Source of the DNA: Sphaerodactylus townsendi
Lineage: Eukaryota
Assembly (NCBI RefSeq): GCF_021028975.2
Contig: NC_059425.1
Span: 111,910,001 to 111,974,000 of the forward strand
Length of the DNA stretch: 64,000 nt
Direction of reading: 5' to 3'
Part shown: positions 1 through 23,962 of the stretch, piece after piece
How the letters are laid out: each line of letters begins with the position of its first letter
Position numbering within the stretch: position 1 is the first letter of the stretch
Program-made: the position numbers and the translations under genes
Notes under the pieces: generated by a model
Seen by the model: only the letters and a program-made list of their open reading frames with translations
What the model was told of the DNA's origin: nothing
Database searches by the model: none

Positions 1-2038
1 CTCTGGATCATTTGCATATCTTTGGCAGTTATGCCAATGTGCTGGTACCTTGGCGTAAAGGCGGAAGGGGGATCAGAGGTGGGTGAGATTGAGGTTTCTT
101 GGTTATGAATCTGAGACAAAAGGTTTTCGTTTTGCACATTCCTATGGAAAGGTTGTGATCTCTCGAAGTGCAAACTTTGAAAAGCATGCAGGATGGGAAA
201 CTATCCATGCTAACACAGAGGTTTTGCTACCTTTCACTCAGCATGAAGGGGTTAACAGAACTGCCAGGCAGCAGCCTGCAGCAGCTCAAGGTCAACCAAC
301 TGCTTCCAGTAGTGGCAAACGTCCAAGGAAGAAAGCTGAGAAGGGGGAAGGGCTGCAAGACAGTGACACTAGCAGTAGTGAAGAAGATGAGAAACAAATT
401 AAGGTGCCTCGTATCTCTGATAGGTCTACAAAAGGGATACCTCCCTGACAGGTATGGGTTTTCTCAAAACGTCTATGTTTGTCAAGCACAGGTATCAGAG
501 CCAAGCTCCTATAAAGAGATGTTAAAGCTACCGCCAGCTGAAATAGAGCTCTGGCGTGAAGCTATGGCTGAGGAGTATAATACCTTAGTGCAATAACAGG
601 TGTTTACCAAGACTGTTTTGCCAGAAGGAGAGGAGGCAATTGGGTCAAAGTGGGTGTTTCGGAGGAAAGAGTTGCCAAATGGTACTCAAAGGTATAAAGC
701 AAGGCTTGTCGCCCAGGGGTTTGTACAAGACCGTTTGCTGAATAATGACCAGACCTATTCTCCCACGGCACGACCTTGAGTCTTTGAGAGAGCTATGCTT
801 GCATTAGCTAGTAAGAAAGGCTTTATGGTGAAGCATTATGACTTTCAGTGTGTTTTTTTTAAATGCTAAATTGAAGGAAGCAATTTATCTGAAGCCTGCA
901 CCAGGGTATGAAGAAGGAGACCCAAATAGTGTGTATCTTTTGCATCGTTCTTTGTATGGTTTAAAACAAGCTGGTGCTAACTGGTATGATGAACTGAACA
1001 GTACATGGCTTAAACGGGGGGTTAAGAAGTCTGTTTCTGATGCATGTTTATGTATCAGGGAACTAAAAGAATCAAGAGGTCATTCTTCTTTATGTTGATG
1101 ACATATGTGTGTGTGCAAGATCTACACAACAATTTGACAAATTGTATAAACAACTCAGTGACATGTATGTTCTAAAGGACTTAGGTTTTATCAAACATTA
1201 CTTGGGTATTGATGTCATATCTACACCAAAGCAAGGTTATCTCCTGAGTCAGAAGAACAAAATAAATGAGTTGGTGCGCAAGACTAGATTGTCAAAGGCA
1301 AGGGTTGCCACAACACTAATGTCCCTAGACTTTCAGAAAGTTAGTGAAAGTGAGGAGTTCAACAATCCTGAACTGTATAAATCTGTTGTAGGTAGTCTCC
1401 TACATATATCTAACTGGACACGCCCAGATATAGCGTTTGCTGTTAGTGCACTAAGCAGAAAAGCTAGCAAGCCCAGCAAACATGATTGGGAGGGTGTTAA
1501 ACGTGTGGTTAGGTACTTAAAAGGAACTGCTGATCATGGTTTACTGATCCAGTCCACGCAAAGCACAGAGTTGCATGCTATTGCAGATAGTTCATTTGCA
1601 GACTGTGGTGACAGGTCCTGTACTGGTTTTGTCATTCAGTATGGTGATGTAGCTATCACCTGGTGTTCTAGAAAACAGACCACAATCAGCCTGTCCACTT
1701 CTGAGGCTGAGTTCTGCGCATTGTCCGAAACGTGTTCAGAACTACTTTGGGTTGAGACACTGCTAACTGAGTTAGGTGAATCCATAAAGAAGCCTATAAC
1801 CGTGTTTGATGATTCACAGACCTGCATCGCATTAGCAGAGACTGCAAACATGAAGACAAGAACTAAGTACATAGGAGTAAAGTACCAGAATGTTAGAGAG
1901 CTAGTACAGAATGGAACTATTCAACTTGCCTATGTTGAGACAGAGCGAAATGTTGCTGATGTTTTTACTAAAGCTGTGTCACAGAATAAGCATCAGACAA
2001 TGTTAGAACAGCTGAAAGTAATAAAGGTGCTGTCATAG
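1..2038 (+). pseudogene. Ty1/copia retrotransposon pol, 3' part (post-integrase SH3-like region, RT, RNase H), with frameshifts and stops
   Basis: Motifs across frames: LDHLHIFGSYANVLVP; FLGYESETKGFR..VVISRSANF; EPSSYKE..W.EAM.EEY; SKWVF..RYKARLVAQGF; LYGLKQAG; YVDD at 1091-1102; TRPDIAFAVS; STSEAEF; NVADVFTKA. The order IN-RT-RH is copia-specific. Confidence 0.95.
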
Positions 2039-17292: not shown

Positions 17293-17535
17293 ATGGTAAA
17301 GGTAGTTCCCTGACCCATGTCACATCACAACATTTACTAGGCAGATTATATTTACAGGGTGGTTTGGCATTGCCTTTCCCAGTCATTTACACTGTGCCCT
17401 GATCTTGGAATGTTGGAATACTGAGTCAACCTTGAACTGGCTACCTGGAACAGACTTCCATCAGGATTGAACTCAAGTCATGAGTGGAGCATTAACTGTA
17501 GCACTGCAGTTTACCACTCCGTGCCACAGGACTCT
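17293..17535 (-). mobile_element. Sauria SINE
   Basis: ggtaaaggtagttccct tail; ggtttggcattgcctttcccagtc; gagtcaaccttga; tRNA B-box on the minus strand (gattgaactc). Confidence 0.8.
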
Positions 17536-17636: not shown

Positions 17637-17748
17637 TTCTCCTGGGGGTGGAGTCCATCTCCGCTGGGTGTTTCTCAACCTTCTATTAGGGAGGCAGGCC
17701 TAAACTTTTAATTTCCTGTCCCTGGCTCCTCCTCCGCTTAGGCTCCAG
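17637..17748 (+). repeat. DIRS left inverted terminal repeat
   Basis: Reverse complement of 22924-23038 with 2 substitutions in the inner ~98 bp and a variant outer end. Confidence 0.95.
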
Positions 17749-17943
17749 ATACTTTCCTGCCTAGCTAGGGAGAGCACCTATAGCGTTTGGCTCCGCTATT
17801 TTACTCACTCCTACCTGGACTTTTCTCTTACTCTTTATTCCTTCAACTTACCTTCAATCTGAATTCTACTTCACTGTGGTAGGTAGGGTTCTTTCCCTTA
17901 AACAACCTCCCCCCCCACCTTTCCCGCCAAAACTAAAAACAAA

Positions 17944-19626
17944 ATGGCGGACGGCTCATTTTCACCTCCCAGGCCCCAATTCGCTAAGTCCACAGCGGAG
18001 GCCACCAGATCCTCCACCTCAAGGTCCCTCGACCTAACAGGAGGAAAGAAACCACCCACGAAGGGAAAATCCAGAGAAAAACGTAAGCCGGACGAGGAAA
18101 CCTCCGGCGCATCCCTTGCCACTCCCGTTTCAAACGCGGAGGCAAAGAAACGACGCACCGAGCAGATGGAAGCGCCGGCCCCTCACGAGCTTCAACGCTC
18201 CCAGAGCGAGGCATCGGCTGCTGCTCCTCCCTCCCCACGAGCCTTCTCGGAACAAGACTCTGAAGACAACTTCAGGCAAGATATTAACGACGAAGGAGGG
18301 AGCGGGATGGAAATAGAACCGAGGGAGGATTCTGGGGACGAACCCTTCAACCTCCAAAATATGACCGCTGCACAATTTTCCCAAATACTCAAGGCGGCAG
18401 TAGCAGAGCAGATGCAATCTATTAATGCCCCCACAACACGGCGCTCTCTTCATAAGAGTAGCACAAGCTCCAATAGAAAACACACTTCCCCAGATCAAGA
18501 AGGGAACCCTCTAGCCTTCCCAGGGGAGGAAACATTTAGCGGAGAAGAGACTCTGGAGGAACCAGAGCACTTCTCAGATCAGGAGGAATCTGCCCCTGAA
18601 ACACCAGATCATTTCACCAGATTTTTCAAATTAGAAGACCTGCCCATGCTTATAAATAAAACCATCTCAGCCCTGGAATTACAGGATGAGGAGGGAGCCC
18701 AAGACGCATCTGCCCCATCCACCTCCACCAAACCCGTTAAAGGGAAACCTAAAGGAAACAAAAAAAATTTCCCTCACCAGGACTCAGCCTCCAACTATTT
18801 TCCCATTCCGGAATATTTAGAAAGAAAAATTAGAAAGGAGTGGCAACAACCAGGGGCAGCGAGAGGCTTACCCTCCACCATCAAAAAATTATACTTGGTG
18901 CCAGAATACATTAATTCCATGCTAAAAGTGCCCCTAGTGGACGCACCGGTAGCAGCACTGCAATCAGGAGGTCTGGTCTCCAAAGACGGAGACGGCTCCA
19001 TTAGGGATGCCATGGATAAGCGCTCAGATGCTTCACTAAGAAGGGCCCACGAATGGACAGCCACCGCAATGAAGGCGTTAGCCCCATCAGCAGTAGTCGC
19101 ACGCGCTCTCTTAGTTTGGTCAAACAGAGTCATGGCAATGATACCACCCGAAAGCACGGCACTCAGGGAGGGCATCCAAAGAATTCTTTGCGGAGTCTCC
19201 TTTCTAGCCGACTCAAACCTGGATGCCCTCCTCCTCTTGGCCAGATCCATGGCAGCATCCATAGTAGCCAGACGCAACAGCTGGCTCAGGGCTTGGCAGG
19301 CAGACCCCCACTCTAGGGTACTGGTGGCAAACTACTCCTTCCAAGGGGAAATGCTCTTTGGCAAAGAGTTGGACCAAGTGCTCACAGAAACAAGAGACAA
19401 AAAGAAAATCATGCCCAAATTTGTGAGAGCCGACCGGCTTCAATTTCAGAGAAATACATTTAGATCACACCGCACATTGCCAAGAGCTCCAAGAGACCTC
19501 CCCCGACAGAACTGGAGACCCCCCAACTCCTTTCGTGGCCGTGGCTCCTTTCGAGCCCACCACTACCAGTCCACACAAACCAGAGCAGACAAATTCGGAA
19601 AGTTTGACAAATCAGGTAAACAATGA
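17944..19626 (+). CDS. DIRS gag-like ORF1 (560 aa; LAP2alpha-like C-terminal domain)
   Basis: Uninterrupted ATG-initiated ORF; acidic disordered N-terminus; EW..P...KLY...VPLVDAPVAAL...D.MDKR..; RR..WL..W.AD; F.G..LFG.ELD, typical of vertebrate DIRS gag. Confidence 0.9.
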   Translation: MADGSFSPPRPQFAKSTAEATRSSTSRSLDLTGGKKPPTKGKSREKRKPDEETSGASLATPVSNAEAKKRRTEQMEAPAPHELQRSQSEASAAAPPSPRAFSEQDSEDNFRQDINDEGGSGMEIEPREDSGDEPFNLQNMTAAQFSQILKAAVAEQMQSINAPTTRRSLHKSSTSSNRKHTSPDQEGNPLAFPGEETFSGEETLEEPEHFSDQEESAPETPDHFTRFFKLEDLPMLINKTISALELQDEEGAQDASAPSTSTKPVKGKPKGNKKNFPHQDSASNYFPIPEYLERKIRKEWQQPGAARGLPSTIKKLYLVPEYINSMLKVPLVDAPVAALQSGGLVSKDGDGSIRDAMDKRSDASLRRAHEWTATAMKALAPSAVVARALLVWSNRVMAMIPPESTALREGIQRILCGVSFLADSNLDALLLLARSMAASIVARRNSWLRAWQADPHSRVLVANYSFQGEMLFGKELDQVLTETRDKKKIMPKFVRADRLQFQRNTFRSHRTLPRAPRDLPRQNWRPPNSFRGRGSFRAHHYQSTQTRADKFGKFDKSGKQ

Positions 19627-21514
19627 CGCCGACACCATACCAGTGGGAGGGAGACTCTCCCACTTCTCCAAACAATGGAGAGGGGAACACACAGACAATT
19701 GGGCACAGGAAATCATTTCCTCAGGCTACCTCATAGAATTTGCTCACATTCCAAAACCACGCTTCTTCCAAACCTCAAATTCCAAGAACCCTCCCACACT
19801 GTCCCGCAACCAACTAGCAGTTCAACACCTACTAGAGATAAGAGCAATAGAAAAGGTCCCCTCACAGGAGAAATCATTAGGCATATACTCACATTTTTTC
19901 ACAGTCCCCAAAAAGACCGGGGACTGGAGAGCCATTCTAGACCTAAAATACATCAACAGGCACATCAAACTCCGTCATTTCCGTATGGAATCCCTCTGCA
20001 CTATCACGGAGGCGCTTTGCCCAGGGGAATTCCTCACATCCCTGGATCTAACGGAAGCTTATCTTCACATAATGATCCACCCATCACACCGACAATACCT
20101 AAGGTTCGTCTCAAACAACCAACACTATCAGTTTCGTGCTTTGCCGTTCGGCCTCTCCACCGCACCCAGAATATTCTCAAAGGTCCTACTAGGTCCCATA
20201 ACACTCCTATGCAAACAGGGAATTCATGCACACCCCTATCTGGACGATATCCTGGTCCGATCTCCCTCCAGGGAACAGGTGCTCAAGGACATCCAGATAG
20301 TGCTCCTCACCTTGAGACAACACGGGTTCTTGGTAAACATAGCCAAAAGCTGTTTGACACCATCACAAGAAATGGAGCACTTAGGCGCCATCATTTCAAC
20401 AACAAAAAATCAACTTTTCCTTCCCCCATTCAAGATTGCATCGATTCAAAAGAAAACGACAGCAATTATCCTAGCCAGACAATCCTCTCTACTTTGTCTC
20501 ACAAGCCTCTTAGGCCAGTTCATAGCAGCAATGGACATGGTGCAATGGGCAAGATTTCATGCACGTCAGCTACAAATCTTTCTTCGCCCATTCCAATTAG
20601 ACATCATGAGAAAGAGAGACCGCTCACTGACCCTGAAACCATCACTGAAGTCCAGCCTTCGATGGTGGACCATTCAAAACAACCTATCACAAGGGAAGAC
20701 CTTCCTATTCCCCAAACGTCCATAAATATTTTCGGACGCCAGCCTCAGGGGCTGGGGAGCAACACTGAACAACAACTTCGTACAAGGGACCTGGAACAGC
20801 ACAGAATCTGCACTTCCAATCAACATCTTAGAAACTCGAGCCATTCTCCTCGCTCTCATACAGTTTCACCCACAGATAAAAAATCAACACGTCCTCATAA
20901 GAACGGACAATGTCGCGGCCAAAGTATACTTAAACAATCAGGGAGGATCCAGATCCTCAAGCCTATATCGAGAGTCAGCAAAGATCCTCACATGGTCAGA
21001 GAAAAACCTAAAATCCATGCAAGCAGACCACATACAAGGAAAACTAAACATCTCAGCGGACTGGCTGAGCAGATCCACAATCCAAGAGGTGGAATGGTCA
21101 ATCAACAGAGAAACCTTCCTTCTCGTATCCCAATACTACGGAATACCAGAAGTCGACCTGTTCGCTACAGCGGACAATGCACAGCTCCCATCTTTCATGA
21201 CAAGATACTTTCACCCAAGAGCAATAGCAGTGGATGCAATGACAGCTCCATGGCCACACACACTCTTGTACGCCTTCCCACCACTCCCACTCCTCCCCAG
21301 ATTCCTCAGGAGAGTCTATCTAGAAAAAGCAAGAGTAATACTCATTGCGCCACACTGGCCCAGGAGGCCCTGGTTTTCGACCATAACCGAGATGTCCAGC
21401 AGACCTCCACTGAGACTCCCATCGATACCAGAACTACTTCACCAGGGCCCGATAGTGCACCCAGACCTCGGCTGGTTTCAACTAACTGCCTGGACATTGA
21501 ACGAAACAACCTAA
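19535..21514 (+). pseudogene. DIRS pol: reverse transcriptase, RNase H and DNA adenine methyltransferase-like domain; one in-frame TAA at 20723-20725
   Basis: VGGRL; LDLTEAYLH; LPFGLSTAPR; PYLDD. Same frame after the stop: IFSDASLRGWGA; INILE; RTDN; N..ADWLSR; VDLFAT..DAM..W....YAFPP; APHWPRRPWF. Confidence 0.93.
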
Positions 21515-22542
21515 GGAACAAAGGCTATTCCAACAAAATAACTAACACCCTATTGGCATTACGTCGCCCCTCTGCCAACAGAATATATAACTACACCTGG
21601 AAGGCCTTCCACAGATGGTCTAGACGTAAGAAAGTCAATCCACAACACCCATCTATAAACAACATCTTAGAGTTTCTTCAAGATGGTGTGGATTCAGGCC
21701 TTAAAAGCTCCACACTACGTAGACAGGTGGCCGCGCTCACTACAGTATGGCCACTATTCGGGGGAATCCCGGCATCCCGACACCCAGACCTACTCAGATT
21801 TCTAAAGGGAGTTCAACAACTACAGCCTCCAACAACCCACAGATTTCCATCCTGGCGCCTACACTCTGTTCTAACCGCTCTCACCAAAGCACCATTTGAA
21901 CCGGTACAATCTATCCCTATCAAGTGGCTAGGCATGAAAACTCTGTTCCTCATCGCATTAACATCGGCCAGACGGGTCTCAGAAATAAGATCCTTATCGG
22001 TAAACAAAAACCTCTGCATCTTTCACTCAGACAAAGTCATACTTCGCACAGACCCAGCCTTCTTACCGAAGGCAGCATCTCGATTTCACCTAAAACAGGA
22101 AATCGTAATTCCAAACTTCTGCGCCAACCCCAAACACCCACAGGAACATCTGTGGCACAATCTGGATGTAAGGCGCTCCTTGAAGGCCTTCATAATTAGA
22201 ACAGAGAACATTCGCAAAACTGAAAGCCTCTTCATCAATGTGACAGCTCCAAACATAGGTCACCAGATGTCCTCGGCCGCTATCAGTTCGACCCTTAAAA
22301 ACTGCATGGCAGAAGCCCACAGAGCTCTGAACTCACCAGTGCCTACAGGAATCACGGCACATTCCATTTGATGCACTGCAACCAATGCTGCCCTACTGCA
22401 CCAGGTCTCAGTAGAAGACATCTGCAGAGTGGCGATCTGGTCCTCACCATCTACATTTACCAGACACTACAGACTTCACTCCTGGTCTGCAGCCCAAAAG
22501 GCATTTGGACAGAGAATCTTGGAACACATCATAGGAGAATGA
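19675..22542 (+). pseudogene. DIRS ORF3: long overlapping N-terminal region plus tyrosine recombinase; nonsense TGA at 22369-22371
   Basis: LTSARRVSE (catalytic R); HSI* where HxxR is expected; the same frame continues CTATNAALLHQVSVEDICRVAIWSSPSTFTRHYRL...GE* to 22542. Confidence 0.93.
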
Positions 22543-22579
22543 CAGTCCCACCCGCATCAGGGACACTGCTCTGGAAGGT

Positions 22580-22670
22580 CCCAGCGGAGATGGACTCCGC
22601 CCCCAGGAGAACGGTCCATTGGACACTTACCGTGAAGGGCCCTTCTCCTGGTGGGCTAGGAGTCCATCTC
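22580..22670 (+). repeat. DIRS internal complementary region (ICR)
   Basis: 22580-22611 is the reverse complement of 17637-17668 (1 mismatch); 22610-22670 is the exact reverse complement of 23011-23071. Confidence 0.96.
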
Positions 22671-22923
22671 GACCCTTTCCTACCGCCTATTCAATTGGAT
22701 GTGTTCCAAAATTTCTATTTCTCTGAATACCAGATAACGCTATCTCAGAATTCTAGCCCTATCACACTTGTTCATAAATTTGCACTTAGAGACACAGTTA
22801 CAGTTACAGTTCCACTTTTTCTGTCACCTAAGTACACTCCAGTTACCGGAGTACTGTTTATATTCGTTATTCCTGTTCCTAATTCTTTTTTCGCTATTCT
22901 TAAACACTGCTTTGACAGTCGTA

Positions 22924-23071
22924 CTGGAGCCTAAGCGGAGGAGGAGCCAGGGACAGGAAATTAAAAATTTAGGCCTGCCTCCCTAACAGAAGGTTGAGAA
23001 ACACCCAGCGGAGATGGACTCCTAGCCCACCAGGAGAAGGGCCCTTCACGGTAAGTGTCCAATGGACCGTT
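22924..23071 (+). repeat. DIRS right ITR plus right extension
   Basis: Inverted copy of the left ITR, then a 33-bp extension complementary to the ICR. Confidence 0.95.
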
Positions 23072-23114
23072 GTGAACTCCCTGTGGAGTGCTGGCCCCAC
23101 CATTGAACTCCTGC

Positions 23115-23268
23115 CTCTGTATAAGCAGTGGATTGTTATTGACCCATGGGGTGATGTCACATCATAACATTTACTAGTCAAACTTTGTTTATAAATAGCT
23201 TCCCATTTCTTTCTCCAATCATCTACAGTTTATCCTCAGCAAGCTAGATACTCATTTTATCAACCTGG
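23115..23268 (-). mobile_element. Sauria SINE body (its tail appears to lie at ~17538-17562, before the DIRS)
   Basis: gacccatggggtgatgtcacatc...cagcaagctagatactcattttatcaacct; the tail-like aaagtaaatgtagtcccc lies on the other side of the DIRS. Confidence 0.65.
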
Positions 23269-23779: not shown

Positions 23780-23962
23780 TTAAGAACATAAGAATAAGCC
23801 TGCTGGATCAGACCAGAGTCCATCTAATCCAGCACTCTGCTACTCGCAGTGGCCCACCAGATGCCTTTGGGAGCTCACATGCAGGATGTGAAAGCAATGG
23901 CCTTCTGCTGCTGCTGCTCCCAAGCACCTGATCTGCTAAGGCATTTGCAATCTAAGATCAAA
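23780..23962 (-). mobile_element. CR1 3' UTR fragment
   Basis: Near reverse-complement match to 52800-52990; taagaacataagaa tail. Confidence 0.85.

What the first reader, a model, noticed from the sequence alone, without database searches (positions are those of the whole stretch)
17637..23071. Young, complete DIRS1-type retrotransposon, two point mutations from an intact ORF set
Seen: all cis elements are present, the ITRs differ by only 2 internal substitutions, gag is intact and there are no frameshifts. The only visible lesions are a TAA at 20723 (between RT and RNase H) and a TGA at 22369 replacing the HxxR catalytic Arg (consistent with CGA>TGA at a CpG). Established: DIRS elements integrate circular intermediates with a tyrosine recombinase and are absent from mammals and birds. 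Inference: active relatives probably exist, and this copy is a template for reconstructing a vertebrate YR retrotransposon.
Basis: partly seen in the sequence, partly recalled or inferred. Interest (0 to 1): 0.7.

Follow-up and report, generated by a model that had tools for sequence, protein, structure and literature searches.

The report
DIRS transposon with three-way stop codon
This is a full-length but broken copy of a known kind of jumping gene, common in this genome, and nearly all relatives examined end their first gene in the same stop codon, which likely lets ribosomes stop, read through or slip one base and so make three proteins from one message.

Summary
The anatomy is confirmed: a complete DIRS1-like retrotransposon (17637-23071) with ITRs, ICR, open gag, no frameshifts and two premature stops found in no aligned sister. 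'Two mutations from intact' and 'template' are overstated. Ten more private substitutions hit conserved residues, the YR stop is not a CpG change, and 16 of 40 picked relatives in this genome have all three frames open.

Comparing copies showed something else. Gag ends in TGA-C in 40 of 41, then 39 of 40 further genomic copies, and in 6 of 6 distant metagenomic elements. The ~970-codon YR frame starts in frame right after that stop and stays open across all of pol, although its sequence is not conserved. Pol starts there in the +1 frame. Neither frame has a conserved ATG or splice acceptor. The likely reading is one weak stop giving Gag, Gag-YR (readthrough) and Gag-Pol (+1 shift).

This rests on DNA only. 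The scan noted UGA readthrough earlier in protist Ngaro elements (gag-pol in frame), not this three-way layout. Two key reviews could not be read.

The parts
17637..17748 (+). left terminus / inverted terminal repeat (core 17650-17748)
17944..19626 (+). gag-like ORF1, 560 aa, open, LAP2alpha domain
   Evidence: PF11560, E 4.5e-16
19618..19632 (+). gag stop TGA-C; candidate site of termination, readthrough and +1 shift
   Evidence: function inferred
19625..21514 (+). pol frame (+1 to gag; open from 19427): RT about 19904-20392, RNase H from about 20726, methyltransferase-like region about 21090-21325
   Evidence: Dam hit (E 6e-5, below cut-off) in relative L023
20723..20725 (+). premature stop in pol, just before RNase H; private to this copy
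19627..22542 (+). ORF3, 971 codons, in frame with gag: about 630 low-conservation codons overlapping pol, then the tyrosine recombinase (about 21500-22539)
   Evidence: (PF00589 E 0.005, below cut-off)
22369..22371 (+). premature stop inside the HxxR motif of YR; private to this copy
22580..22670 (.). internal complementary region (left part 22580-22611, right part 22610-22670)
22924..23071 (+). right inverted repeat and right extension; holds a donor-like GTAAGT at 23051-23056

Best explanation
This is a full-length DIRS1-like retrotransposon copy with broken pol and recombinase frames, and its family keeps an invariant TGA-C at the end of gag that likely acts as a three-way switch: stop (Gag), readthrough (Gag-linker-recombinase) or +1 slip (Gag-Pol). 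Shown: the anatomy, the private lesions, the conserved stop context, the frame layout, the open overlap, and the lack of conserved ATGs or splice sites. Inferred: both recoding events; that Gag fusion serves to package RT and YR with the RNA; that this copy cannot move on its own but could be moved in trans because its ends and ICR are whole (trans action is shown only for Dictyostelium DIRS-1, PMC7192593). Part confidences: ordinary dead DIRS1 copy about 0.93; YR by readthrough about 0.75; pol by +1 shift at or just before the stop about 0.6.
For: Stop context: TGA-C in 40 of 41 sequences (40 picked for long ORF3 plus the window; 1 has an N gap), which fall in 22 clusters at 80% identity, median identity 61.5%; in 39 of 40 further copies taken in RT-hit order without regard to ORF3; in 6 of 6 metagenomic elements that hold the junction, 36-40% identical in RT (7 loci found; YR confirmed for two). 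The pol and ORF3 stops of the same copies vary freely. TGA-CTA in 22 of 40; UGA_CUA(G) is a measured readthrough signal (PMC9841425, passages). Codon before the stop TCC in 23 of 40 and 19 of 39, the antizyme +1 site UCC_UGA; the metagenomic elements have TCC (2), TTT (2), CCC, GTT. Overlap frame: 98 stops against 751 in the third frame over 16,359 codons in the unselected set, 20 of 39 with none; 0 against 9-30 expected per element in the 6 metagenomic ones; yet dN/dS about 3 there against 0.05-0.08 in gag, pol and YR, so openness, not sequence, is kept. No conserved Met in ORF3 before the YR domain; the commonest first pol Met is codon 117-119, inside RT, while the conserved PVGGRL-type motif begins a few codons after the stop. 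The pol frame is closed 32 nt upstream of the stop in L105. No conserved donor or acceptor.
Against: No RNA, ribosome or protein data. The window's own context is CAA-TGA-CGC, and UGA_CGC reads through less than UGA_CUA in PMC9841425. The codon before the stop varies (11 kinds in 40), and several would re-pair poorly after a +1 slip. No consensus stimulatory structure (RNAalifold -0.5 kcal/mol); a stem picked by eye has 68% of cells paired. The C after TGA is also the third base of a pol Asp codon (76% GAC in pol), so it is partly explained by codon use. The pol frame is open about 250 nt upstream in most lizard-type copies, and acceptor-like sites occur there in 20 of 31; donor-like sites lie in the 5' leader of about a dozen of 31 copies. 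Exceptions: TGG in 1 of 40 and, among 18 sisters shown, 12 TGA-C, 3 TGG (indel-rich copies), 1 TGA-T, 2 unaligned. The reshuffling tests used copies chosen for an open ORF3 and are biased.
Confidence: 0.55

Rival explanations
1. YR is made by readthrough, but pol is reached by splicing from the gag start or 5' leader to an acceptor in the last 250 nt of gag.
For: Pol frame open 245-285 nt upstream in most copies; acceptor-like sites in 20 of 31, several near -160 to -175; the scan's notes infer splicing for Ngaro elements (unchecked).
Against: Sites scatter in place and phase and coincide with Arg AGA codons of a gag motif; 11 of 31 have none; no conserved donor after the gag ATG; a leader donor gives pol no ATG; L105 leaves only 32 nt.
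Confidence: 0.2
2. Pol and ORF3 are translated separately, by reinitiation after the gag stop or from shorter RNAs, at non-conserved or non-AUG starts.
For: About half the copies have an ORF3 ATG in the first 25 codons, the window at codon 16; ORF2 and ORF3 GFP fusions are expressed in Dictyostelium mutants (PMC5633606, passage).
Against: Many copies have their first ORF3 Met at codon 270-490 with the frame open all the way; no shared near-cognate start in the pol frame; it does not explain an invariant TGA-C.
Confidence: 0.15
3. One reading: the copy is two point changes from functional and is the best window on an active vertebrate DIRS.
For: Only two stops and no frameshift; both stops private; ends and ICR whole.
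Against: Ten further private changes at conserved residues; 16 of 40 picked relatives have all frames open; a tighter subfamily lies 9-10% away.
Confidence: 0.07
4. One or both premature stops are assembly errors and the copy is coding-competent.
For: Many sister copies carry insertion-rich indel noise; a single-depth contig of organism B that is 97% alike lacks the YR stop, though it may be a paralogue.
Against: The window copy has no frameshift, and short-read contigs of organism A match other parts of it at 99-100%; about 1% private change makes two stops unremarkable.
Confidence: 0.08

Closest known systems
DIRS1-like retrotransposons of vertebrates (Anolis AcDIRS2, Xenopus XtDIRS2/3 and DIRS-like families; PMC3266345, PMC9210276)
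   Same: 5.4 kb, ITRs, right extension, two-part ICR (32 + 61 nt; 39-60 in AcDIRS2, 43-61 in XtDIRS2), LAP2alpha gag, RT-RH-MT pol, YR ORF with long overlap, NTT ends.
   Different: The passages read describe the overlap but not how pol or YR is translated. The match to the target here is TT plus Y-T rather than a fixed trinucleotide.
Dictyostelium DIRS-1 (PMC7192593)
   Same: ICR complementary to both ends; three ORFs, two overlapping.
   Different: Longer ITRs; mobility shown by assay there, not here; its gag stop context was not examined.
Antizyme +1 frameshift (UCC_UGA) and UGA_CUA(G) readthrough signals (PMC9841425, PMC5009743)
   Same: The commonest context, TCC-TGA-CTA, joins the antizyme P-site codon to the readthrough 3' motif; both outcomes compete at weak stops in reporters.
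   Different: In those genes one outcome is the useful one; here both alternative frames hold essential enzymes. No conserved pseudoknot or stem was found.
Ngaro-type YR retrotransposons
   Same: RT/RH and YR without integrase; frameshifting proposed for YR (Poulter and Butler 2015, as quoted in PMC13003380).
   Different: Split direct repeats, short RT-YR overlap in the -1 frame, no MT; not this layout.

Membership tests
DIRS1-like superfamily | inverted terminal repeats | tested here: met
DIRS1-like superfamily | ICR complementary to both ends, halves overlapping at the junction | tested here: met
   joined ends match the ICR with 1 mismatch in 91
DIRS1-like superfamily | gag ORF1 (LAP2alpha domain in vertebrates) | tested here: met
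   PMC4495291 passages
DIRS1-like superfamily | pol with RT, RNase H and methyltransferase-like domain | tested here: met
   RVT_1 above cut-off, RT_RNaseH just below; YLDD, SDAS, ADWLSR, AFPP motifs match the table of PMC3266345 S3; Dam hit in a relative only
DIRS1-like superfamily | tyrosine recombinase, no DDE integrase or protease | tested here: met
   weak PF00589 and SAM-like hits, R..HxxR..HY motifs in relatives; no integrase or protease hit; no NCBIfam or PDB match
DIRS1-like superfamily | no target-site duplication; NTT ends | tested here: met
   flanks unrelated, only TT shared; empty site not examined
DIRS1-like superfamily | replication through an ICR-dependent cDNA | not testable with these tools
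   needs RNA or cell assays
Ngaro / PAT | split direct repeats | tested here: not met
   terminal repeats are inverted
Programmed stop-codon readthrough | single conserved weak stop between two in-frame ORFs, downstream frame kept open | tested here: met
Programmed stop-codon readthrough | measured readthrough product | not testable with these tools
   needs reporters or proteomics
Stop-dependent +1 frameshift (antizyme type) | conserved shift-prone P-site codon before UGA | tested here: inconclusive
   TCC in about half; 11 codon kinds
Stop-dependent +1 frameshift (antizyme type) | conserved 3' stimulatory structure | tested here: inconclusive
   no consensus fold; weak stem; pseudoknots not modelled

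The most novel reading that the evidence does not exclude
DIRS1-like retrotransposons with a long overlap, from this vertebrate to distant marine eukaryotes, make all three proteins from one mRNA through one stop codon that is purposely decoded three ways (stop, readthrough, +1 shift), with a 630-codon overprinted linker kept open only to tether the recombinase to Gag, and this has not been described.
Probability: 0.35. Interest if true: 0.75.

Novelty: new variant of a known kind. Interest (0 to 1): 0.5.

Why it matters
The copy itself matters little: it is one dead member among thousands of candidate DIRS matches in this genome. The conserved stop matters more. It would explain the long-noted but unexplained overlap of the YR and pol frames, say how DIRS elements without a protease or internal start codons make RT and recombinase, and give a natural site where readthrough and +1 frameshifting are both needed. 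A short reporter cassette can test it directly.

Tried and rejected
RNA: no RNA holder listed, so splicing, expression and circle junctions were not tested. Short-read contigs: no piece at 97% likeness or more from organism A covered either stop or bridged the right junction; insertion polymorphism was not shown, and summed depths are no copy numbers. Conserved RNA structure after the stop: no consensus; shuffled-fold z about -1.2, like one control window; no synonymous-site peak. Conserved splice sites inside the element: none (weights approximate, recalled). CpG origin of the YR stop rejected. ITR identity as the only clock rejected: one ITR is copied from the other in each cycle (model in PMC7192593). 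PDB, NCBIfam, Rfam and tRNA scans gave nothing. No host gene was identified from 11 other long frames of the window. Literature: searches and term searches in PMC3783388, PMC6681497, PMC2685390, PMC5941688 and PMC5009743 (first 300,000 of 449,034 characters, no mention of DIRS) found no account of how DIRS1 pol or YR is translated. Poulter and Butler 2015 and Goodwin and Poulter 2001 are not held and may already discuss it. Supplements of PMC9210276 (ORF coordinates) could not be read.

Full report
1. Observation. The element runs from 17637 to 23071. The ITR cores (99 bp) differ at 2 sites, and the ICR (22580-22670) matches the right end at 61 of 61 and the left end at 31 of 32 bases. gag (560 aa) is open and hits LAP2alpha; pol hits RT and, weakly, RNase H; the YR frame hits the phage-integrase family only weakly. 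Each enzyme frame has one premature stop, at 20723 and 22369. CpG observed/expected is 0.52 in the element and about 0.19 in the flanks, as expected for a fairly recent insertion in a methylated vertebrate genome (inference).

2. Sisters. Two DNA searches of the own genome (40 candidates scored each) gave no near-identical copy. Of 20 loci fetched, 19 were analysed. Both stops are private. The nearest copy is 4.8% away; a group of 8 copies is 1.2-4.3% apart among themselves and 8.9-10.6% from the window. Many copies carry insertion-rich indels that look like long-read errors (inference), so their frameshifts were not counted as real. The window copy has 54 strictly private substitutions (1.0%), an upper bound on change since insertion; at recalled reptile rates that is a few million years at most. 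Ten of its residues depart from highly conserved columns and occur in no close sister. No sister has a CpG at the YR stop. Fixed differences between two subfamilies give dN/dS of 0.05-0.08 in gag, pol and YR, so their source lineages were under selection.

3. The wider family. Protein searches gave 5567, 4730 and 5530 first-look candidates, of which 136-150 were scored. Of 40 copies picked for long frames, 16 have all three frames open, 15 with both ICR halves. This copy is an ordinary dead member.

4. The gag stop. In these copies ORF3 begins on the base after the gag stop, in the gag frame, and is 963-973 codons long; pol is in the +1 frame and 626-629 codons long after the stop in most unbroken copies. 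The stop is TGA followed by C in 40 of 41, in 39 of 40 copies taken without regard to ORF3, and in 6 of 6 metagenomic DIRS-type elements from three assemblies. The other two stops of the same elements vary. ORF3 stays nearly free of stops across pol (98 against 751 in the third frame; several of the 98 come from frameshifted copies), while its amino acids there are not conserved. It has no shared Met before the YR domain, and pol has none before its conserved start motif. No donor or acceptor is shared in place and phase.

5. Mechanism. Most ribosomes would stop and make Gag. Some would read through the UGA and run down the overprinted linker to YR; some would slip +1 at the stop and enter pol at the Asp codon formed by GA-C. 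The commonest context, TCC-TGA-CTA, combines the antizyme shift codon with a measured readthrough motif, and reporters show that these outcomes compete at weak stops (PMC9841425; abstract and passages). All of this step is inferred. Against it: no RNA or protein data, a variable P-site codon, no consensus stimulator, a weaker context in the window itself, and scattered acceptor-like sites upstream that keep splicing alive for pol. Downstream steps follow PMC7192593 (abstract, Introduction, first part of Discussion, passages): the ICR is needed, cDNA is mostly linear and single-stranded, proteins act in trans, and the circle remains a model.

6. Comparison with what is known. All testable defining features of DIRS1-like elements are met, and size and repeat layout match Anolis and Xenopus elements (PMC3266345: passages, section 10, supplement S3; PMC9210276: passages). 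The long overlap is known. I found no account of the in-frame TGA-C or of how pol and YR are translated in seven searches and five term look-ups (see Tried and rejected), but the two main reviews were not held; one of them proposes frameshifting for Ngaro YR (quoted in PMC13003380, passage) and may cover DIRS1 too. Earlier notes of this scan report gag-UGA-pol readthrough or splicing in Ngaro-type elements and the terminal donor motif in this genome; none found describes this layout.

7. Verdict. The finding as stated is real but ordinary and overstated (about 0.2 alone). The conserved three-frame stop is a well-supported sequence pattern with an untested mechanism and uncertain priority. Overall interest 0.5.

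Noticed in passing
window 23072-23075 and flanks of L001-L060: The base after the right-hand TT is C or T in 19 of 19 sisters and 36 of 36 diverged copies, and the next is T in 18 of 19 and 26 of 36, so targets resemble the element's own TTCT start; the window copy (G) is the exception.
   Followed up: partly
window 18537-19436: The window copy is 4-10% from subfamily member L006 here and 13-25% elsewhere, suggesting recombination between subfamilies in gag.
   Followed up: no
window 23051-23056 and the right ends of L021-L060: A donor-like GT(A/G)AGT followed by CCAAT lies about 20 nt before the right end in the copies with both ends found; noted earlier by this scan.
   Followed up: partly
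window 18177-18636, 21097-21381, 22651-22951: Single-depth contigs of a second organism label (B) match at 98.6-99.3%, like its flank divergence of about 1%, so the insertion may be shared; no listed contig bridges a junction.
   Followed up: partly
5' leaders of about a dozen of 31 copies (window near 17880): Donor-like GT(A/G)(A/G)G(T/G) sites 40-135 nt before the gag ATG, not at a fixed place.
   Followed up: partly
last 6-8 codons of gag in 22 lineages: Biased bases upstream of the stop (G-18 in 20, A-17 in 19, C-11 in 18, C/T-7 in 22, A-6 in 20 of 22) could be a 5' stimulator or a Gag tail motif.
   Followed up: no
window 1067-2038: Frame with an RVT_2 (Copia-type RT) hit, E 1.4e-10.
   Followed up: no
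window 17317-17354, 23154-23191 and 23780-23960: High-copy repeats flank the element on both sides, and a very high-copy repeat lies at about 23.8 kb.
   Followed up: no
G000:C963: A small contig holds three RT matches with 716-codon frames in alternating orientation within 12 kb; nested copies or an assembly artefact.
   Followed up: no
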